Of a DNA stretch of 19,276 bases, positions 10,644-18,907 are shown piece by piece. The notes under the pieces are model-generated. The model was not told the origin of the DNA. It did not search any database and worked only from the letters and a program-made list of their open reading frames with translations. The stretch is taken from the IMG/VR virus record IMGVR_UViG_2617270963_000006. One strand, 5' to 3'. Position 1 is the first letter of the stretch. Every line of letters starts with the position of its first letter. The stretch is from a virus. Taxonomy: Duplodnaviria > Heunggongvirae > Uroviricota > Caudoviricetes. Both the position numbers and the translations under genes were made by a program.

Positions 10644-10774
10644 ATTCATTACGATATGGGAATTCCCATATCGGGTAAAAACGGTTTGCGGTAAAGCGAG
10701 AGTTAAGCAGAATTGCTGCGGGTGCTTGAGGCTGTCTGCCTCGGGCATGCCACCGTAAGGCAGACAGAGAAAAA

Positions 10775-10860
10775 CCCCAGTTAACATTACGCGTCCTGCA
10801 AGACGCCTAACATTAATCTGAGGCCAATTTCATGCTAGACACATGTAGGTTAGCCTCTTA
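10775..10860 (-). ncRNA. sok: candidate Sok-like antisense RNA of the hok/sok module (position approximate)
   Basis: Inferred from hok-family organisation: the antisense regulator lies opposite the hok leader. No promoter or terminator was pinned down. Confidence 0.3.
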
Positions 10861-10888
10861 CGCGCCGAAAGGCAAGGAGAAGCAGGCT

Positions 10889-11044
10889 ATGAAGCAGCAA
10901 AAGGCGATGTTAGTCGCCCTGATCGTCATCTGTATTACCGTCGTAGTGACGGCACTGGTAACGAGGAAAGACCTCTGCGAGGTACGAATCCGAACCGGTC
11001 AGACGGAGGTTGCTGTCTTCACAGCTTACAAACCTGAGGAGTAA
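10889..11044 (+). CDS. hok: Hok/Gef-family type I toxin (51 aa)
   Basis: MKQQKAMLVALIVICITVVVTALVTRKDLCEVRIRTGQTEVAVFTAYKPEE is nearly identical to chromosomal Hok homologues (HokD/RelF as recalled). In-frame upstream extension from ATG 10832 (track ORF 10832-11044). Terminator follows. Confidence 0.85.
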   Translation: MKQQKAMLVALIVICITVVVTALVTRKDLCEVRIRTGQTEVAVFTAYKPEE

Positions 11045-11433: not shown

Positions 11434-11451
11434 TGATGGGTATTGTGCTCT

Positions 11452-11937
11452 ATGGCTGAGATTGTTGAAGGAGTGCACTACCTTTCGTTTGATGATCTTA
11501 CCGAAATTAATCGCCTTTTAATTGAGCTTCAAACACCAGATGAACCTGTTAGTGTGCTGAGTGTTGATAATTTAAGTTCTTCTCAGTCTCGTCCCAGCAT
11601 GGTTCGATGGTATGAACAGACTAATGACATGTTTGTACTGGCATCAGTATTGATTGAAAGTCTGATTCAGAATCATCCATTTGCTAATGCAAACAAACGA
11701 ACAGCTATGATGGCTGGTTATGTCTTCTTGTTGTTGAATGGCTATGAGTTAACAGCACCAGGCGATGAAATCGTGGAAATGGCAGAGGGACTGGCCTGCA
11801 AAACCTATACTCGAGAAGATCTCGAGAACTGGTTGTGTTATTGGTCTCGTGCGTATGACAGCCGGGAATTATGTAAAACAGGCGCAACTATTGTTTTGTA
11901 TGAAACTATCAAGCTTAAAATAGAACAGCAAAACTAA
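11452..11937 (+). CDS. doc: Doc (death-on-curing) / Fic-fold toxin, about 161 aa
   Basis: Catalytic motif HPFANANKR fits the Doc signature HxFx(D/N)(A/G)NKR. Start is uncertain: ATG at 11452 or TTG at 11443. Confidence 0.75.
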   Translation: MAEIVEGVHYLSFDDLTEINRLLIELQTPDEPVSVLSVDNLSSSQSRPSMVRWYEQTNDMFVLASVLIESLIQNHPFANANKRTAMMAGYVFLLLNGYELTAPGDEIVEMAEGLACKTYTREDLENWLCYWSRAYDSRELCKTGATIVLYETIKLKIEQQN

Positions 11938-11953
11938 AGGTGCTTCTAATGAA

Positions 11954-11976
11954 AATCCGCTTCGGCGGGTTTTGTT
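11954..11976 (+). terminator. rho-independent terminator after the Doc module
   Basis: CCGC-TTCG-GCGG followed by a T-rich tract. Confidence 0.55.
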
Positions 11977-11987
11977 GTATTGGAGTA

Positions 11988-12305
11988 TCATGATATTACT
12001 TGGATCCCGTTTTTCTCTACGACTGAAAGAAGGCGAAGAGCGGCACCTCCCGGCCGTTTTACACCACGTTCCCAGTCTGATATCAGGTTTTTACTGACGT
12101 TGAGGTATCTGGCAAAAACAGGTTGAGACAGATGCTCTCGTTCGCGCAGTGCACGGATCCTTTCCGGAGACATTACCGGCGCTGGCTGGAGACAAGTTTC
12201 ATCGAATTCTCGCATAGTCTGTTTCGTTACTGCGCCGATATCATGAAGCGATTCCATCATTTCATGTACGGATGCAAGCGCATCACTGCGGTAATTTTTA
12301 CTCAT
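11988..12305 (-). CDS. HTH (XRE-type) antitoxin, HigA/MqsA-like, 105 aa
   Basis: C-terminal HTH (LSQPVFARYLNVSKNLISDWERGVKRPGGAALRLL); GGAGG 7 nt upstream; lies directly downstream of a RelE-like toxin ORF on the same strand. Confidence 0.65.
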   Translation of the reverse strand: MSKNYRSDALASVHEMMESLHDIGAVTKQTMREFDETCLQPAPVMSPERIRALREREHLSQPVFARYLNVSKNLISDWERGVKRPGGAALRLLSVVEKNGIQVIS

Positions 12306-12359
12306 TGGGTACCTCCGTAAACTGACCCTGTAGAATCAGTTGTGCCAGTTGTTCATCTG

Positions 12360-12668
12360 TTAGATTGAGTACGTGAGGAGCCCCTTCCGAAATGCACTTT
12401 CCTCAGTAGCGGTTATATTTTCACGTTCATTTTTTGCGTATGCATATACGAAAAAGGCCCTTGTGCCGACGCGATAGAAAATGATTGTGCGATAACCGCC
12501 AGATTTGCCGCCACCGACTCGTGGCAGACGTTGCTTGATAACGCCGTTACCCAGGTTTGCTGAGATAAGCCCGTTATCAGCCTGTTTAACAATTTCGCGC
12601 AGTGACTGGTCGGATATTTTGTTTTTGTGTGCAAATCGCTCAAACCAGGCGTTTTTAAAAATGCGCAT
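12360..12668 (-). CDS. RelE/ParE-superfamily toxin (HigB-like; toxin-first arrangement), 102 aa
   Basis: Segment GGGKSGGYRTIIFYRVGTRAFFVYAYAKNEREN is typical of RelE/HigB-like killer proteins; followed by the HTH antitoxin. Confidence 0.65.
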   Translation of the reverse strand: MRIFKNAWFERFAHKNKISDQSLREIVKQADNGLISANLGNGVIKQRLPRVGGGKSGGYRTIIFYRVGTRAFFVYAYAKNERENITATEESAFRKGLLTYSI

Positions 12669-12772
12669 TTTTTTGTTCCGTTATTAATGTATAACACATA
12701 GTATTACATTGCGTAGGGATCTGCAATGCCATCAGTTTGACAACGTCGCGTATCCGGGATTATATTCATCGC

Positions 12773-12851
12773 ACGCCAGCAAAATCTGGCGTCGGGATTA
12801 GGAACCCCGGATAGAAACCGCGACAGAGACACGCCGCGAGCGTGTTTTTTA
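12773..12851 (+). ncRNA. candidate small RNA (about 80 nt) with its own promoter and intrinsic terminator, carrying a TTAGGAAC motif
   Basis: Promoter TTGACA (12737-12742), 18-nt spacer, TATATT (12761-12766). Terminator ACACGC-CGCGA-GCGTGT plus T-run at 12829-12851. No ORF. Confidence 0.3.
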
Positions 12852-13013
12852 TTGTCGTATGCACACGCACATCTGAATTATGGTGGGGCGTATAGGGGAG
12901 CTGAAAAGCTCGCCGGTTGGTTTCCCGGTAGTTCCTAACCCTGTACGTCTCGCCACCCGATGATTAGGAACCTGACGGTGGTGATAGTTTAGAAACCACT
13001 CGAGGGCGTCATT

Positions 13014-13685
13014 ATGACAACTCAAGTTTCTGTTGAAACACTCTCCACGATTACTTACAAGCAGATCCCCGTTATCACTACCGAACTTTTGGCGCACCTT
13101 TACGGCACAGAAGCTATTCGTATTCGCCAGAATCACCACGAAAACAAAGGTCGTTTCATTGAGGAAAAACACTTCTTCAAACTTGAAGGTGAAACTTTAC
13201 GTGAGTTCAAGCACAGAGTAGCTTTTAACTACTCTGTGAAAATTGCCCGTAACGTTCGCTCCCTCATCCTATGGACAGAACGCGGCGCAGCCCGTCACGC
13301 AAAAATGCTCGAAACTGATCAGGCGTGGGAGGTATTCGAAAAACTGGAAGACTGCTATTTCAGCCAGGGAAAAACAGCACCAACCGAACAGCAGCCGCAG
13401 ATTCAGCCACAATTCACAGCCGAAGAAATCATCCTCCTTTGCTACATGCAGCTCTGGATGGAAAAAGCCCAGGACCTCAGCAAACACCTGTATCCCATTA
13501 TGAAAGAGCTGAACTCCTCATACACGAACAAGCTGTATGACATTGCGTTTGAGACCATCTACATGGTGACGAAGAACAGAGACGCGCTACTAAGGGAGGT
13601 AACACGTCTCGACATGTCAAGTTCCATTATCCAGCGGGCCATGCCAATGCTGAAAAGCCTGCGGGCAAGACAATTTGAATTCTGA
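13014..13685 (+). CDS. phage antirepressor-like regulator (ORF6N/Rha-type N-terminal domain), 223 aa
   Basis: N-terminal segment (ITYKQIPVITTELLAHLYGTEAIRIRQNHHENKGRFIEEKHFFKLEG) resembles ORF6N/Rha antirepressor domains; GAGGG RBS; terminator follows. Confidence 0.6.
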   Translation: MTTQVSVETLSTITYKQIPVITTELLAHLYGTEAIRIRQNHHENKGRFIEEKHFFKLEGETLREFKHRVAFNYSVKIARNVRSLILWTERGAARHAKMLETDQAWEVFEKLEDCYFSQGKTAPTEQQPQIQPQFTAEEIILLCYMQLWMEKAQDLSKHLYPIMKELNSSYTNKLYDIAFETIYMVTKNRDALLREVTRLDMSSSIIQRAMPMLKSLRARQFEF

Positions 13686-13691
13686 AACTAA

Positions 13692-13713
13692 AGGAGCTTC
13701 GGCTCCTTTTTTG
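13692..13713 (+). terminator. rho-independent terminator
   Basis: AGGAGC-TTCG-GCTCCT followed by TTTTTT. Confidence 0.6.
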
Positions 13714-13739
13714 TTGGGAAAATCCAGTGAGAGGGAATA

Positions 13740-14150
13740 ATGAACCAGACTATCTTCCTCCGAAGTAAGCAGCAGCAACAATTTGCCATTAACGCCATCC
13801 TTGCAACAACTCTCGATAAAGACAAACCCGTTACGATCCGCATCACCGATTACAAGCGGAATCTCGATCAAAATGCCAAATTTCACGCGATGGTCGCTGA
13901 TATCTCCCGACAGGTTCAGTGGTGCGGCAGATGGCTAAAACCAGAACAGTGGAAAGTTTTGTTAATCAGCGGACATGCCGTGGCTACAAAACAGGAAGCT
14001 GATGTTTTGCCAGGTCTTGAAGGTGAATACGTCAATATCCGCGAAAGCAGTGCGCAGATGAGCGTGAAGCGTATGGCAAGCCTGATTGAGTACACAACTT
14101 CCTGGGCTGTGGAGCAGGGTGTCAGATTTACCGACAGGAGGTATGAATGA
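13740..14150 (+). CDS. ninB: NinB (Orf-family recombination mediator), 136 aa
   Basis: Translation resembles lambda NinB, including the conserved block [27 protein letters not shown]. Confidence 0.85.
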
Positions 14151-14338
14151 GACGACAGCGACGAAGCATTACCGATATAGTCTGTGAAAACTGCAATTAC
14201 CTTCCAACGAAACGCTCCCGAAATAAACCCAGGCCAATCCCCAACGAATCTGATGTAAAAACCTTCAATTATACGTCTCACCTGTGGGATGTCCGGTGGC
14301 TCAGACGTCGTGCAAGATTTAATAGTCACTCCGGATAG
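14147..14338 (+). CDS. ninE: NinE-like small protein (63 aa)
   Basis: Start overlaps the ninB stop (ATGA). Basic Cys-containing peptide ([27 protein letters not shown]...) at the ninE position upstream of ybcO; family assignment from memory. Confidence 0.5.
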
Positions 14339-14358
14339 TTCAATGTACGAGGAATAAG

Positions 14359-14652
14359 ATGATGGCAAACCTACGCAAAGAAGCGCGTGGCAGAGAATGT
14401 CAGGTACGGATTTACGGCGTATGCAATGGCAATCCTGAAACTACAGTTTTGGCGCATTACCGAATAGCTGGAATTTGCGGAACGGGAATGAAGCCAGATG
14501 ACCTGTTGGCTGCATGGGCCTGTAGTGACTGCCATAATGAAATCGATCGCCGTACTCGCATTCTCGACAACAACGACGCCAGACTTTACCACCTGGAAGG
14601 CGTGATCAGGACGCAGGCGATATTGCTGAAGGAGGGGAAGATTAAGTCATGA
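14359..14652 (+). CDS. ybcO: YbcO-like (DUF1364) putative nuclease, 97 aa
   Basis: Conserved Cys/His pattern (CQVRIYGVCNGNPETTVLAH ... CSDCHNEIDRR) as in DLP12 YbcO; GAGGA RBS. Confidence 0.8.
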   Translation: MMANLRKEARGRECQVRIYGVCNGNPETTVLAHYRIAGICGTGMKPDDLLAAWACSDCHNEIDRRTRILDNNDARLYHLEGVIRTQAILLKEGKIKS

Positions 14653-15011: not shown

Positions 15012-15205
15012 TGAATGCTAAAATTCAAACGATACCTGAATTACTGATCTGCACCAGGGGAAATCAGACAGAAGTCGCCAGAATACCGAACTGCAATCGT
15101 GCTACAGTCAGAAAATACATTGATGATAAAGATGCGAAAAAGCACGCCGTCGTCAATGGCGTCCTTATGGTTCATCGCGGATGGGGTAAAGATACTGATG
15201 CGTGA
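15011..15205 (+). CDS. small putative DNA-binding (HTH-like) protein, 64 aa
   Basis: ATG at 15011 with GGAG 8 nt upstream; HTH-like segment [20 protein letters not shown]; its 3' end overlaps the Q start by 8 nt. Confidence 0.45.
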
Positions 15206-15578
15206 TATCCGGCAGGTTCTTGAGCGCTGGGGGGCATGGGCGGTAAATAACTATGAGGATGTTACATGGTCGCCCATTGCTGCCGGATTTAAGGGACTGA
15301 TCCCCGAAAAAGTAAAATCACGTCCACAGTGCTGTGACGATGATGCGATGGTGATATGCGGGTGCATAGCCCGCCTTTACCGGAACAATCGCGATCTGCA
15401 TGACTTGCTGGTTGATTACTACGTGTTGGGGGAGACGTTCATGGCGCTGGCACGTAAGCATGGATGCTCTGATGGAACTATCGGTAAAAAATTACAGAAA
15501 GCGGAGGGCGTGGTTGAAGGGATGTTAATGTTACTTGGTGTCAGACTGGAAATGGACCGATATGCGCAACGCCTCTGA
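15198..15578 (+). CDS. Q: late-gene antiterminator Q (QuuD/phage-82-type), 126 aa
   Basis: [25 protein letters not shown] ... [14 protein letters not shown] motif resembles Q antiterminators of DLP12/phage-82 type; position after rusA. Confidence 0.75.
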
Positions 15579-16649: not shown

Positions 16650-16885
16650 GTATCCGTTCAACGGGAATGTTACATACCTCACAATTAAGTCAGTTGAATG
16701 TTGTCTGCCCGGATGAGAATTTGTTAGAAAAAACTGCATGGTGAATCCCCCTGAGCGGAGGGGCGACTGGTGACGGTATAATCTCTGATTATCAAAACGA
16801 GAATGACGCGGGTTTAGTGGCACCGGGCTGAACTCACCGGGAGGCACCCGGCACCATGCAATGGCACATAGCGCCACTCTCCAGC

Positions 16886-16940
16886 CCCTCTCCGGAGGGG
16901 CTTTCTTATGGACAAAAAAGCCCGCGCTGGGAGACGCGGG
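16886..16940. terminator. back-to-back hairpins: plus-strand CCCCTC-TCCG-GAGGGG then T-rich; minus-strand terminator (A-run, then GCCCGCG-CTGGGAGA-CGCGGGC)
   Basis: Read directly from the sequence; orientation of function uncertain. Confidence 0.4.
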
Positions 16941-17134: not shown

Positions 17135-18907
17135 ATGGCATTTAAACACTATGATGTTGTCAGGGCGGCGTCGCCGTCAGACCTTGCGAAACGAATAACT
17201 CAAAAACTGAAGGAAGGGGGGCAGCCTTATGGTAGTGCGCTGATTTCGACAGCTGGTTATGGTGCGGAGTTCATCCAGCCAGTTGTGAGTGAGGGGAGCA
17301 TCTCATCACCAGAGGAGCCAGGCAACCGTCCGACGACCTCAGCGCCTTCTGTTGCGCCAGAATATTACTATGTGATCGCGCTTGCTGGTCAGTCCAATGG
17401 TATGTCATACGGTGAGGGACTGCCATTACCGGATACATTCGACAGCCCTGATCCACGTATTAAACAGTTAGCGCGTCGCAGTACGGTGACACCGGGCGGT
17501 GCAGCATGCAAATATAACGACATCATTCCGGCGGACCATTGTCTGCATGATGTGCAGGACATGAGCCGTCTTAACCATCCGAAAGCGGACCTGTCAAAGG
17601 GGCAGTACGGAACCGTGGGGCAGGGGCTGCATATCGCCAAAAAACTGCTGCCGTTTATACCGGCGAATGCGGGCATTCTGCTGGTTCCGTGCTGTCGTGG
17701 GGGTTCAGCGTTCACCACCGGAGCTGATGGCACATACAGTGACGCGAGTGGCGCCTCGGAGAATTCACCCCGCTGGGGTGTGGAAAAGCCGCTGTATAAG
17801 GACCTTATCGGTCGAACAAAAGCGGCACTGGAGAAGAACCCGAAAAATGTGCTGTTTGCCGTGGTGTGGATGCAGGGGGAATTTGATTTTGGCGGTACGC
17901 CGGCAAATCATGCCGCACAGTTTGGTGCGCTGGTTGATAAATTCCGTGCAGACCTGGCGGATATGGCAGGCCAGTGCGTCGGTGGCTCTGCTGGCGGTGT
18001 TCCCTGGATATGCGGGGACACGACGTATTTCTGGAAGCAGAAGAACGAATCCACGTACCAGACGGTGTACGGCAGCTATAAAAATAAAACGGAAAAGAAT
18101 ATCCATTTCGTACCGTTCATGACCGATGAGAACGGGGTGAATGTGCCGACGAACAAACCGGAAGAAGACCCGGACATTCCGGGTATCGGTTATTACGGTT
18201 CGAAATGGCGTGACAGCTCAGCCACCTGGACGTCACAGGACAGGGCGAGCCATTTCAGTTCATGGGCTCGCCGTGGGATTATTTCCGACCGTCTGGCAAC
18301 GGCGATTCTGAGCTGCGCGGGTAAGTCTTCTGCGTTTGTTAATGGTACTGCCGGGGTGGTTGTTCCAGACAGACCGGTTACCACCTCAGAGTCTGTAATT
18401 TTTTACGATGCCAAAAAAGCTACAGACAATCAGCTGAAACCCTATGGCTGGGACGGTGTGTATGGCAGGGGCACACTGGTTGATGACAGCGGCAATAAAG
18501 CTCTGCGAATTGAGAAAAATAACAGCGCGAAATCCTGGTCAATGTACTGTGATATTGCTGCAGACAAGGCAAAACTTTTACTGGAAAAAGGCGGGGAAAT
18601 TGCTGTCCGGTTTAAAATCCCCGAAAACGTCAATCTTGAGACAACCAGAAACAAGTATGCCTTTGGTTTGTACTGGCGAATAGCGGAATGGCCGGGTGAG
18701 GGTGGTGAAGGCCATCTGAGTTCTTTCTTTGTCCAGACAGATAAAGCCAGTATTAATGTTGCATACCATCATACAGTTAATCAACAAAAAGAACTTGGCA
18801 CGTTTGGCGCATTCGACCATGACTGGCATACGCTTGCATTTAAATTTAAGGGCAGTAACAGCATTAATGAACCGCCCCGGGTTTCCTGGAGAGTGTTTTA
18901 TCTGTGA
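17135..18907 (+). CDS. nanS: NanS-p-type prophage esterase (DUF1737 N-terminus plus SGNH/SASA sialate O-acetylesterase domain), C-terminally truncated and fused to IS sequence
   Basis: N-terminus MAFKHYDVVRAASPSDLAKRITQKLKEGGQPYG and the GQSNG motif (IALAGQSNGMSYG) are characteristic of NanS-p encoded downstream of Q/stx in lambdoid prophages. The frame enters the IS at 18868, so the last 12 codons are IS-derived. Confidence 0.75.
   Translation: MAFKHYDVVRAASPSDLAKRITQKLKEGGQPYGSALISTAGYGAEFIQPVVSEGSISSPEEPGNRPTTSAPSVAPEYYYVIALAGQSNGMSYGEGLPLPDTFDSPDPRIKQLARRSTVTPGGAACKYNDIIPADHCLHDVQDMSRLNHPKADLSKGQYGTVGQGLHIAKKLLPFIPANAGILLVPCCRGGSAFTTGADGTYSDASGASENSPRWGVEKPLYKDLIGRTKAALEKNPKNVLFAVVWMQGEFDFGGTPANHAAQFGALVDKFRADLADMAGQCVGGSAGGVPWICGDTTYFWKQKNESTYQTVYGSYKNKTEKNIHFVPFMTDENGVNVPTNKPEEDPDIPGIGYYGSKWRDSSATWTSQDRASHFSSWARRGIISDRLATAILSCAGKSSAFVNGTAGVVVPDRPVTTSESVIFYDAKKATDNQLKPYGWDGVYGRGTLVDDSGNKALRIEKNNSAKSWSMYCDIAADKAKLLLEKGGEIAVRFKIPENVNLETTRNKYAFGLYWRIAEWPGEGGEGHLSSFFVQTDKASINVAYHHTVNQQKELGTFGAFDHDWHTLAFKFKGSNSINEPPRVSWRVFYL

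What the first reader, a model, noticed from the sequence alone, without database searches (positions are those of the whole stretch)
12700..13013. Candidate sRNA plus triple TTAGGAAC motif forming possible alternative pairings in the antirepressor-like gene leader
A near-consensus sigma70 promoter (TTGACA-N18-TATATT, 12737-12766) is followed about 80 nt later by a strong intrinsic terminator (12829-12851), with no ORF between. The transcript contains GATTAGGAACC (12796-12806). Its reverse complement GTTCCTAA occurs at 12931-12938 and a second forward copy at 12962-12972, 42 nt upstream of the antirepressor-like ATG. The middle copy can pair with either flanking copy, giving a switch-like arrangement. 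The short RNA could also act in trans on the leader. This looks like an RNA-based control of antirepressor expression.
Basis: seen in the sequence. Interest (0 to 1): 0.6.

Follow-up and report, generated by a model that had tools for sequence, protein, structure and literature searches.

The report
Phage C4/IsrK RNA switch controlling antirepressor
The three repeated motifs are real, but they belong to an already described phage RNA circuit: a small structured antisense RNA (C4) that silences an antirepressor gene, preceded by a short decoy RNA (IsrK), here sitting unannotated in an E. coli lambdoid prophage.

Summary
The motif occurs 3 times in the window against 0.4 expected.

This is a known system. 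Rfam scores 12773-12850 as IsrK (69 bits, cut-off 50) and 12876-12960 as C4 antisense RNA (66 bits, cut-off 45). The layout is the one annotated in phage P1 immI:
- promoter
- a1/b1 sites
- C4 RNA carrying a'/b'
- a2/b2 sites
- ant

The middle copy sits inside a very stable structured RNA. There is also a second motif triple: b1 GAAACC 12814-19, b' GGTTTC 12919-24, b2 GAAACCA 12992-98, which ends 3 nt before the ant Shine-Dalgarno.

Across 113 related loci I found 9 a-types and 26 b-types, and all three copies change together. The locus is about 81% identical to the Gifsy-1 isrK-anrP locus, where IsrK acting in trans activates antirepressor translation.

The most likely mechanism is that C4 blocks ant translation by pairing with a2/b2, and the IsrK leader competes for C4. 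The kind is already known, so interest is low. One side point may be useful: the Gifsy-1 "orf45"/STnc1160 region is the C4 RNA homologue.

The parts
12737..12766 (+). Sigma-70 promoter of the module (TTGACA-N18-TATATT). The transcription start is inferred at about 12773.
   Evidence: 11 of 12 consensus positions. The same TTGAC...TATATT / TATAGT promoter sits at the same place in Gifsy-1, Stx phages and P1, where it is annotated P1c4/P51b.
12773..12850 (+). IsrK-type short RNA, which is also the 5' leader of the read-through transcript. It has hairpin 1 (12773-92), the a1 hairpin (12793-96 with 12806-09) and an intrinsic terminator (12825-34 with 12840-49, then a U-run to 12850).
   Evidence: Rfam RF01394: 69.2 bits against a cut-off of 50, full-length match. 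Fold -27.3 kcal/mol, z = -2.9. Hairpin 1 shows compensatory changes in 6 of 7 pairs. A T-run lies at the equivalent place in more than 100 of 113 related loci.
12798..12805 (+). a1 site (TTAGGAAC), displayed in the loop of the a1 hairpin.
   Evidence: a1-a' pairing holds in 92% of cells, and 4 pairs carry changes on both sides across 45 loci. c4-a1b1 RF03163 scores 44.0 bits against a cut-off of 46.7.
12814..12819 (+). b1 site (GAAACC), single-stranded between the a1 hairpin and the terminator.
   Evidence: It is the complement of the C4 hairpin-2 loop. In related loci the complement of b' falls at about -61 from C4. Cognate matches average 6.7 nt against 4.0 nt for non-cognate pairs.
12876..12960 (+). 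C4 antisense RNA gene. By analogy with the P1 annotation the mature RNA is predicted as 12882-12957 (76 nt). It has a 17-bp closing stem (12881-97 with 12939-55), hairpin 1 (12898-12911) and hairpin 2 (12912-12929).
   Evidence: Rfam RF01695: 66.0 bits against a cut-off of 45. Fold -43.7 kcal/mol, z = -6.3. Closing stem is 100% paired with 7 compensatory pairs; hairpin 1 has 5 of 5 compensatory pairs. P1 c4 is annotated at the equivalent position.
12918..12924 (+). b' (TGGTTTC) in the loop of C4 hairpin 2. It pairs with b2, and with b1 through one G-U pair.
   Evidence: the loop is unpaired in the minimum-energy fold. 26 b' types covary with b1 and b2.
12931..12938 (+). a' (GTTCCTAA) in the single-stranded segment between hairpin 2 and the closing stem of C4.
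   Evidence: 9 a' types covary with a1 and a2.
12964..12971 (+). a2 target site (TTAGGAAC) in the ant leader, starting 7 nt after the predicted C4 3' end.
   Evidence: a'-a2 pairing holds in 94% of cells with 4 compensatory pairs. P1 a2 is annotated at the same relative place.
12977..12984 (+). GGTGGTGA, complementary to the 3' strand of the C4 closing stem (12950-57). This is a conserved alternative helix that would place a2 in a 19-nt loop.
   Evidence: 95.8% of cells pair, 5 of 8 pairs have changes on both sides, and 0 of 500 shuffles reach that. Function unknown. Weinberg 2010 noted a terminator-like hairpin overlapping the 3' half of the C4 P1 stem in some loci.
12992..12998 (+). b2 target site (GAAACCA), ending 3 nt upstream of the ant Shine-Dalgarno.
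   Evidence: Cognate b2 matches average 8.3 nt against 4.3 nt non-cognate. In most other specificity classes b2 runs into the SD (GGA / GGAG), as it does in P1.
13002..13016 (+). Shine-Dalgarno GAGGG (13002-06) and the ATG start codon (13014-16) of the antirepressor gene.
   Evidence: The same ...GAGGGCGTCATTATGAC... start region occurs in Gifsy-1 anrP and in Stx phage ant genes.
13014..13685 (+). Antirepressor-like gene (223 aa; ORF6N N-terminal domain plus P22_AR_C). It is the regulated output, followed by a terminator-like hairpin at 13690-13709.
   Evidence: Pfam ORF6N 1e-19 and P22_AR_C 2e-7. 61% identity to Gifsy-1 AnrP over 149 aa.

Best explanation
The region 12737-13016 is the regulatory head of a self-contained antirepressor cassette of the P1/P7 c4 (immI) type, in the lambdoid-prophage form studied in Salmonella Gifsy-1 as isrK-'orf45'-anrP.

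Proposed sequence of events:
1. A sigma-70 promoter starts transcription at about 12773.
2. Many transcripts stop at the intrinsic terminator. This gives a ~78-nt IsrK-type RNA that displays a1 in a hairpin loop and b1 as single strand.
3. Read-through transcripts contain the C4 RNA (mature form predicted as 12882-12957). In P1 this RNA is excised, with its 5' end made by RNase P.
4. C4 pairs through its exposed a' and b' segments with a2 (12964-71) and b2 (12992-98) in the ant leader. These sites lie 50 to 16 nt upstream of the start codon and directly next to the Shine-Dalgarno. Pairing blocks ribosome entry, and probably allows premature termination as in P1. The antirepressor is therefore kept off in the lysogen.
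5. a1/b1, both in cis and on the free IsrK RNA, carry the same sequences as a2/b2. They compete for C4, so a rise in IsrK relieves repression and lets the antirepressor be made.
6. The a and b sequences act as specificity alleles that keep different prophages' circuits separate (heteroimmunity).

Shown here: family membership, structures, complementarity and co-variation.
Inferred from homologues: processing, translational block, de-repression by IsrK and antirepressor activity.
For: - Rfam gathering-level hits to isrK and C4, adjacent and on the same strand. c4-a1b1 scores 44 bits.
- The order of parts is identical to the annotated P1 immI region: P1c4 promoter, a1, b1, c4 RNA, a2, b2 overlapping the RBS.
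- All 10 phage loci that BLAST to this region carry the isrK + C4 pair, including Gifsy-1 at about 81% identity.
- Among 113 unique C4 loci there are 41 (a', b') combinations. The complements of a' and b' sit at fixed positions upstream (about -77 and -61) and downstream (about +9 and +40).
- Cognate complementarity far exceeds non-cognate complementarity.
- Pair counts on a 45-sequence alignment: 97.7% of cells paired, 23 pairs with compensatory change, 0 of 500 shuffles as good, slid controls 36-47%. a1-a' is 92% paired.
- C4 folds at -43.7 kcal/mol (z = -6.3) with a' and b' unpaired.
- The downstream protein is an ORF6N/P22_AR_C antirepressor-like protein, 61% identical to AnrP.
- Published experiments on the Gifsy-1 homologue: IsrK supplied in trans raises anrP translation more than 100-fold; compensatory mutations G28/C162 and G31/C159 fall in what are a1 and a' here; a stable processed RNA (STnc1160) lies downstream of IsrK (PMC4825925).
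Against: - Nothing about this particular locus has been tested experimentally.
- Here b2 stops 3 nt short of the SD instead of overlapping it as in P1 and most other classes, so direct RBS occlusion is less certain.
- There is no icd-like ORF between C4 and ant, so the P1 route (blocking icd translation, then Rho termination) cannot be copied literally.
- Thermodynamic co-folding shows no net gain for C4 + target or C4 + IsrK (ddG 0 to -0.5 kcal/mol). Whole-molecule duplex scores are not beyond shuffles for the ant leader (86 of 300 shuffles as good; IsrK 16 of 300). These tools cannot model loop-loop kissing, so this is weak evidence.
- The Gifsy-1 authors explain activation through translation of 'orf45' and coupling to anrP, not through titration of a C4-like repressor.
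- c4-a1b1 scores just below its Rfam cut-off (44.0 against 46.7).
Confidence: 0.85

Rival explanations
1. A purely cis-acting conformational switch, as the Gifsy-1 paper describes it. In the read-through mRNA the IsrK part pairs with about 30 nt of the a'b' region (inactive structure A). Free IsrK displaces it (structure B). Translation of a small upstream ORF that begins at the conserved ATG (12880) is then needed to open and translate ant by coupling. No separate C4 repressor RNA is involved.
For: - Native gels, compensatory mutants and start/stop-codon mutants of orf45 in Gifsy-1 (PMC4825925).
- The a'-a1 region can form an extended duplex of -19.9 kcal/mol here.
- The ATG at 12880 is invariant.
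- The conserved alternative helix 12950-57 with 12977-84 shows that the C4 closing stem has a selected competitor, which fits a switch.
Against: - In this window the ORF from ATG 12880 is only 27 codons and stops at TGA 12961-63, 51 nt before the ant ATG.
- Its length ranges from 8 to more than 86 codons in 113 loci. The Gifsy-1 authors themselves found the nucleotide sequence conserved but the amino-acid sequence variable.
- The invariant ATGGTGG is explained by the C4 closing stem, which is 100% paired with 7 compensatory pairs.
- The full-leader minimum-energy fold keeps C4 and the IsrK hairpins folded separately.
- This model gives no role to a2/b2, yet they covary with a'/b'.
Confidence: 0.1
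2. The ~78-nt RNA is mainly a trans-acting Hfq-dependent sRNA with host mRNA targets, and its resemblance to the ant leader sites is secondary.
For: - The Rfam family is named 'isrK Hfq binding RNA'.
- It has its own promoter and a terminator with a U-tail.
- Prophage sRNAs with host targets are known in EHEC (reviewed in PMC12197685).
Against: - Its only variable segments are a1 and b1, and they track the cognate C4 in every locus. That pattern is expected for a partner of C4, not of a conserved host mRNA.
- No host target is known for IsrK in the papers I read.
- TTAGGAAC occurs nowhere else in the window.
Confidence: 0.04
3. The three copies are a chance repeat or a leftover of a duplication, with no function.
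For: Short 8-mers recur by chance in any sequence. 1 of 200 shuffles of the window also gave three copies.
Against: - All three copies lie within 175 nt in the exact positions of a1, a' and a2.
- 9 a-types and 26 b-types change in concert in all three positions across 113 loci.
- 0 of 500 shuffles reach the observed covariation.
Confidence: 0.01

Closest known systems
P1/P7 immI: c4 antisense RNA - icd - ant (Citron & Schuster 1990; Rfam RF01695 and RF03163; annotated in NC_005856)
   Same: - Same order of parts: sigma-70 promoter, a1/b1, structured C4 RNA with a' in a single-stranded segment and b' in the hairpin-2 loop, a2/b2, then the regulated gene.
- Same C4 fold (long closing stem plus two hairpins, 3' ...CCACC).
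- Even a terminator-like hairpin between b1 and C4. P1 matches the isrK model end to end at 35 bits, E = 5e-6.
   Different: - The specificity sequences differ: P1 has TTGACAG / GTTAGTG, this window has TTAGGAAC / GAAACCA.
- There is no icd ORF, so b2 sits directly in front of ant and ends 3 nt before the SD instead of overlapping it.
- The Ant protein is unrelated in sequence to P1 Ant1.
- No C1 operator or second promoter was recognised.
- The host element is a lambdoid prophage (nin region), not a plasmid prophage.
Gifsy-1 isrK - orf45 (STnc1160) - anrP locus of Salmonella (Hershko-Shalev et al. 2016, PMC4825925; Rfam RF01394)
   Same: - About 81% DNA identity over the whole leader.
- Identical terminator sequence.
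- AnrP is 61% identical over the N-terminal 149 aa.
- Same promoter, short RNA plus read-through architecture. The experimentally mapped IsrK-'orf45' pairing corresponds to a1-a' here.
   Different: - a and b alleles differ: Gifsy-1 has TTGGCGT / TCACCG.
- 'orf45' is 27 codons here and does not overlap the ant start.
- The module lies upstream of ninB and Q here, but downstream of Q in Gifsy-1.
- No IsrJ follows ant.
- In all the text I searched, the Gifsy-1 paper does not connect the locus with P1 c4. Rfam scores its 'orf45' region as C4 at 69 bits.
Phage P4 CI RNA with seqA / seqC targets
   Same: A processed small RNA from the leader of an operon pairs with complementary sequences both upstream and downstream of itself. 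Hershko-Shalev et al. cite it as a structural analogue of IsrK/SeqA.
   Different: According to that paper, P4 CI acts by causing premature transcription termination of replication genes, not on an antirepressor RBS. I did not test any sequence relationship here.
P22 sar antisense RNA controlling ant
   Same: An RNA repressor of an antirepressor gene in a temperate enterobacterial phage. The window's Ant carries the P22_AR_C domain.
   Different: From my own knowledge, sar is a true cis-antisense transcript made from the opposite strand across the ant RBS. Here all parts lie on the same strand, and the scan found no minus-strand promoter in 12700-13013.

Membership tests
C4 antisense RNA (Rfam RF01695) | Covariance-model score at or above the curated gathering threshold, with a full-length match | tested here: met
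   66.0 bits against a cut-off of 45, model positions 1-87 of 87, at 12876-12960 +.
C4 antisense RNA (Rfam RF01695) | Long closing stem enclosing two hairpins, supported by covariation | tested here: met
   The minimum-energy fold reproduces it at -43.7 kcal/mol, z = -6.3. In 45 loci the closing stem is 100% paired with 7 compensatory pairs, hairpin 1 has 5 of 5 compensatory pairs, and hairpin 2 is 100% paired.
P1/P7 c4-type immunity (immI) | Exposed a' and b' segments complementary to a2 and b2 between C4 and the regulated gene, next to its ribosome-binding site | tested here: met
   a' 12931-38 pairs with a2 12964-71 (8 bp). b' 12918-24 pairs with b2 12992-98 (7 bp). b2 ends 3 nt before SD 13002-06. 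Cognate specificity is shown.
P1/P7 c4-type immunity (immI) | A second set of the same target sequences (a1, b1) upstream of C4 on the same transcript | tested here: met
   a1 at 12798-12805 and b1 at 12814-19. a1-a' is 92% paired with 4 compensatory pairs.
P1/P7 c4-type immunity (immI) | The regulated gene is an antirepressor | tested here: inconclusive
   Pfam ORF6N + P22_AR_C, and 61% identity to AnrP, which induces Gifsy-1. There is no sequence similarity to P1 Ant1. Activity against a repressor has not been tested.
P1/P7 c4-type immunity (immI) | An icd ORF between C4 and ant, whose translation is the direct target | tested here: not met
   No ORF lies between 12960 and 13014. Only a 4-codon GTG frame is present, and ant starts 15 nt after b2. 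This feature belongs to the P1 operon, not to the RNA family.
P1/P7 c4-type immunity (immI) | C4 is released from the precursor, with its 5' end made by RNase P | not testable with these tools
   The sequence context agrees with the P1 annotation: U at -1, G at +1 (12882), and the stem followed by ACC (12955-57), which is invariant in 45 loci. Processing itself was not observed.
IsrK (Rfam RF01394) | Covariance-model score at or above the gathering threshold | tested here: met
   69.2 bits against a cut-off of 50, model positions 1-77 of 77, at 12773-12850 +.
IsrK (Rfam RF01394) | Own promoter and an intrinsic terminator giving a ~75-80-nt RNA, with read-through into an anrP-like gene | tested here: met
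   Promoter at 11 of 12 consensus positions. Terminator at -11.5 kcal/mol, identical to the Gifsy-1 one. AnrP homologue downstream. Actual termination and read-through were not measured.
IsrK locus as described in Gifsy-1 | orf45 whose stop codon overlaps the anrP start (ATGA), giving translational coupling | tested here: not met
   The ORF from ATG 12880 has 27 codons and stops at 12961-63, 51 nt before the ant ATG. Its length varies from 8 to more than 86 codons in 113 loci.
c4-a1b1 (Rfam RF03163) | Covariance-model score at or above the gathering threshold | tested here: not met
   44.0 bits against a cut-off of 46.7, E = 1.4e-9, full length at 12760-12813. The two hairpins are present and covary. 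The miss is marginal, and several sister loci pass.

The most novel reading that the evidence does not exclude
The most novel reading left open concerns the conserved helix between the 3' strand of the C4 closing stem (12950-57) and GGTGGTGA (12977-84). It has 5 compensatory pairs in 45 loci, is also present in P1, and is mutually exclusive with the folded C4. It could mean that the unprocessed transcript toggles between two states: a 'C4 folded / repressor made' state and an 'a2 displayed in a loop' state. IsrK/a1b1 would decide which state forms. The module would then be a self-contained cis/trans RNA switch rather than a simple antisense repressor plus decoy. This reading would also recast Gifsy-1 'orf45'/STnc1160 as the C4 repressor and IsrK as its anti-antisense RNA, joining two literatures that cite each other rarely or not at all.
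Probability: 0.25. Interest if true: 0.45.

Novelty: already known. Interest (0 to 1): 0.2.

Why it matters
Antirepressor cassettes of this kind decide whether a prophage stays silent. A match to this leader is found in 738 of 5,426 complete E. coli genomes and in many Stx-converting phages, so the circuit bears on Shiga-toxin phage induction and on cross-talk between co-resident prophages.

For this window the practical value is annotation. RefSeq lists only an 'ORF6N domain-containing protein' under the match and no RNA genes. In related phage records gene callers place spurious 'hypothetical protein' CDSs over IsrK and C4.

The comparative data here give a catalogue of specificity alleles: 9 a-types and 26 b-types in this sample. 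They also support the view that the Gifsy-1 'orf45'/STnc1160 region is a C4 RNA. Neither point changes the known principle.

Tried and rejected
- **Co-folding and whole-molecule duplex energies** for C4 with IsrK or with the ant leader. There was no net gain (ddG 0 to -0.5), and the duplex scores were not clearly beyond shuffles. These tools cannot represent loop-loop contacts without unfolding C4, so I did not use the result as evidence either way.
- **Local duplex energies.** These suggested that a1 binds a' more strongly than a2 does (42 of 43 loci). The same roughly 5 kcal/mol excess appears in non-cognate pairs. It comes from constant flanks that are already engaged in intramolecular stems. 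I rejected it as evidence for a built-in decoy advantage.
- **Alignment-based counting of b'-b1 and b'-b2 pairs** gave only 39-76% paired, because the b' loop varies in length and the columns fall out of register. I replaced it with an alignment-free cognate versus non-cognate test.
- **First count of the C4 closing stem** was off by one column through my own error. It is corrected.
- **LexA box near the promoter.** None was found. There were 6 one-mismatch matches elsewhere in the window against 5.7 expected.
- **A coding role for the ORF starting at ATG 12880** was rejected because the ORF is not conserved.
- **tRNA scan** found none.
- **The P1 genome paper** (PMC523184) is not held. I took the P1 details from the GenBank annotation, from PMC8198154 and from the supplement of PMC2864571.
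- **P22 sar-type cis-antisense control** was considered and rejected, because all parts are on one strand.
Full report
**1. Checking the observation**

- TTGACA 12737-42, an 18-nt spacer, TATATT 12761-66
- GATTAGGAACC at 12796-12806
- its complement GTTCCTAA at 12931-12938
- a second GATTAGGAACC at 12962-12972
- the ATG of a 223-codon ORF at 13014

The promoter is the best sigma-70 match in 11500-14500, at 11 of 12 consensus positions. No + strand ORF of 40 aa or more lies between promoter and terminator.

The terminator hairpin pairs 12825-34 with 12840-49 and is followed by a U-run. It folds at -11.5 kcal/mol, z = -3.0. The simple scanner did not list it on the + strand.

TTAGGAAC occurs three times in the 19-kb window, all inside 175 nt. 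The expected number is 0.40.

**2. What it is**

An Rfam scan of the whole window gives two adjacent, same-strand hits above the curated thresholds:
- isrK (RF01394) at 12773-12850, 69.2 bits against a cut-off of 50
- C4 antisense RNA (RF01695) at 12876-12960, 66.0 bits against a cut-off of 45

A permissive scan adds c4-a1b1 (RF03163) at 12760-12813. It scores 44.0 bits, just under its cut-off of 46.7.

The GenBank record of phage P1 annotates the same order of parts in its immI region (sequence):
- promoter P1c4
- a1 and b1, annotated as 'putative target site for C4 RNA'
- the 77-nt c4 RNA
- a2 and b2, where b2 runs into the Shine-Dalgarno of icd
- icd, then ant

- GAAACC 12814-19 (b1)
- UGGUUUC 12918-24 in the loop of C4 hairpin 2 (b')
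- GAAACCA 12992-98 (b2), which ends 3 nt before the ant Shine-Dalgarno GAGGG 13002-06

C4 folds into the family structure at -43.7 kcal/mol (z = -6.3), and a' and b' are unpaired in that fold.

**3. Surroundings**

The window is a lambdoid prophage, 99.8% identical here to prophages of E. coli O104:H4 strains. The only feature annotated under the match is an 'ORF6N domain-containing protein', with no RNA genes.

Neighbouring genes:
- a Fic/Doc protein
- a RelE-family toxin and an HTH antitoxin on the minus strand
- then the RNA module and the ORF6N + P22_AR_C antirepressor-like gene
- NinB, YbcO, RusA and the antiterminator Q

A terminator-like hairpin follows ant at 13690-13709. The module therefore looks like a self-contained cassette.

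The Ant protein is 61% identical to Gifsy-1 AnrP over its first 149 residues. It is unrelated in sequence to P1 Ant1.

**4. Related loci and covariation**

BLAST against phage genomes finds the leader in 270 records. Most are Stx-converting phages, and Gifsy-1 matches at about 81% identity.

All ten loci that I fetched carry the isrK + C4 pair. P1 also matches the isrK model end to end, terminator included, though below threshold at 35 bits, E = 5e-6.

Laying the loci side by side shows that the a and b sequences differ between loci and change at all three positions together. Three examples:

| Locus | a type | b type |
|---|---|---|
| Gifsy-1 | TTGGCGT | TCACCG |
| phi346 | TTCGAAC | GAAACC |
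| PhiR12_4 | TTTGCAC | TCAACC |

A pattern scan of viral contigs gave 113 unique C4 loci. They contain 41 (a', b') combinations, made of 9 a' types and 26 b' types. The complement of a' sits at about -77 and about +9 relative to C4. The complement of b' sits at about -61 and about +40.

Longest exact complementarity, cognate against non-cognate pairs:

| Site | Cognate (nt) | Non-cognate (nt) |
|---|---|---|
| a1 | 5.9 | 3.8 |
| a2 | 6.0 | 3.2 |
| b1 | 6.7 | 4.0 |
| b2 | 8.3 | 4.3 |

I then counted pairs on a 45-sequence alignment (A1). The structure tested was the two leader hairpins, the C4 fold and the a'-a2 contact.
- 97.7% of cells are paired.
- 23 pairs carry changes on both sides.
- No shuffle out of 500 does as well, and slid controls reach 36-47%.
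- The a1-a' contact is 92% paired with four compensatory pairs.

A T-run marking the IsrK terminator lies 29-40 nt upstream of C4 in more than 100 of the 113 loci. The triple motif is therefore functional and under selection. It is the specificity determinant of the system.

**5. How it most likely works**

Shown here: the parts, their structures, their complementarity and their co-evolution.

Taken from homologues:
- In P1, C4 is needed in addition to the C1 repressor to keep ant off. It binds the icd-ant leader around the ribosome-binding site (annotation; PMC8198154; PMC12197685).
- The idea that a1/b1 compete with a2/b2 for C4 and so free ant expression is attributed to Citron & Schuster 1990 in the supplement of PMC2864571.
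- In Gifsy-1 the isrK promoter drives a short terminated RNA and a read-through mRNA that is translationally silent.
- IsrK supplied in trans raises anrP translation more than 100-fold.
- Compensatory mutations G28/C162 and G31/C159 define a helix that, mapped onto this window, is a1-a'.
- A stable processed RNA, STnc1160, lies downstream of IsrK.
- AnrP leads to prophage induction (PMC4825925).

Putting these together, my model is that C4, cut from read-through transcripts, represses ant by pairing at a2/b2 next to the SD. The IsrK leader, free or in cis, titrates C4 and de-represses ant. I give 0.85 to the identity of the module. I give about 0.6 to this exact chain of events at this locus.

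**6. Differences from the models**

- There is no icd ORF here. b2 directly precedes ant and ends 3 nt before the SD, rather than overlapping it as in P1 and most other allele classes.
- The Gifsy-1 'orf45' is not conserved. In this window the frame from the invariant ATG 12880 has 27 codons and stops 51 nt before ant. In the 113 loci it runs from 8 to more than 86 codons.
- The Gifsy-1 authors themselves found the nucleotide sequence conserved but the amino-acid sequence variable. That is the pattern expected of a structured RNA.
- Rfam scores the Gifsy-1 'orf45' region as C4 at 69 bits.
- The Gifsy-1 paper does not cite the P1 c4 work. A 2025 review lists IsrK and c4 as separate entries.
- Coupling through a small ORF is therefore not available as the mechanism here. 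I keep the cis-switch model as a rival at 0.1.

**7. A side finding**

The 3' strand of the C4 closing stem (12950-57, TCGCCACC) is complementary to GGTGGTGA at 12977-84, just after a2.
- In the 45 loci, 95.8% of cells pair.
- 5 of 8 pairs show changes on both sides.
- No shuffle reaches this, and slid controls give 28-68%.
- P1 has the helix too, at 8 of 9 pairs.

This helix excludes the folded C4 and would present a2 in a 19-nt loop, much as a1 is presented in its own hairpin.

[quoted passage not shown] Here the helix is not followed by a convincing U-run. Its role is unknown, and it is the basis of the 'novel case'.

**8. Things that led nowhere**

- Co-fold and whole-molecule duplex energies were uninformative.
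- The apparent stronger binding of a1 than a2 comes from constant flanks that are already paired within their own RNAs.
- Alignment-based b-pair counts were spoiled by variable loop length.
- No LexA box lies near the promoter.
- No tRNA genes were found.

**9. Verdict**

The feature is an unannotated instance of a system described in 1990 (P1/P7 c4), catalogued in Rfam, and dissected experimentally in a locus about 81% identical (Gifsy-1 IsrK). I rate novelty as already known and interest at 0.2.

The useful by-products are the annotation of this locus, the allele catalogue, the identification of 'orf45'/STnc1160 as C4, and the conserved alternative helix.

Noticed in passing
window 12950-12957 with 12977-12984: A conserved alternative helix joins the 3' strand of the C4 closing stem to GGTGGTGA just after a2. 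It is 95.8% paired, 5 of 8 pairs are compensatory in 45 loci, and it is also present in P1. It is mutually exclusive with the folded C4 and would display a2 in a 19-nt loop. Its role is unknown.
   Followed up: partly
window 12880-12963; loci L003 783-1022, L004 753-926, L009 883-1545: The invariant ATG in the C4 5' strand opens an ORF of very variable length: 27 codons here, 45 in Gifsy-1, and 8 to more than 86 in 113 loci. Deposited phage annotations place 'hypothetical protein' CDSs over IsrK and C4. These are probably artefacts of calling genes across RNA genes.
   Followed up: partly
window 10720-10894 (+): Rfam 'sok antitoxin' hit (RF01794, 110 bits against a cut-off of 59). It overlaps the start of a 70-codon ORF at 10832-11044, which suggests a hok/sok-type toxin-antitoxin module in the prophage early region.
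   Followed up: no
window 16708-16913 (+): Rfam STnc100 hit (RF02076, 165 bits against a cut-off of 47). It lies downstream of the Q antiterminator gene (15099-15578) and upstream of a 590-aa DUF1737 / SASA esterase / DUF6645 gene (17135-18907). This is the usual place of the late-promoter leader RNA in Stx-type phages.
   Followed up: no
window 11443-12668: Immediately upstream of the RNA module lie three genes: a Fic/Doc-family gene (11443-11937, +), and a divergently oriented pair consisting of a RelE-family toxin (12360-12668, -) and an HTH antitoxin (11988-12305, -).
   Followed up: no
L036 9756-11104 and L084 4807-5499: Two viral contigs carry two or three C4 pattern matches spaced exactly 656 bp apart on the same strand. 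This points to tandem arrays of C4 cassettes.
   Followed up: no
L108 2361-2622 and L045 4240-4501 (alignment A1, about columns 105-141): Two loci have an insertion of about 37 nt between the IsrK terminator and C4. Their a1 site lies at about -116 instead of about -77.
   Followed up: no
window 13690-13709 (+): A GC-rich hairpin followed by a T-run lies right after the ant stop codon. The promoter-IsrK-C4-ant unit therefore looks like an autonomous, moron-like cassette inserted before ninB.
   Followed up: no
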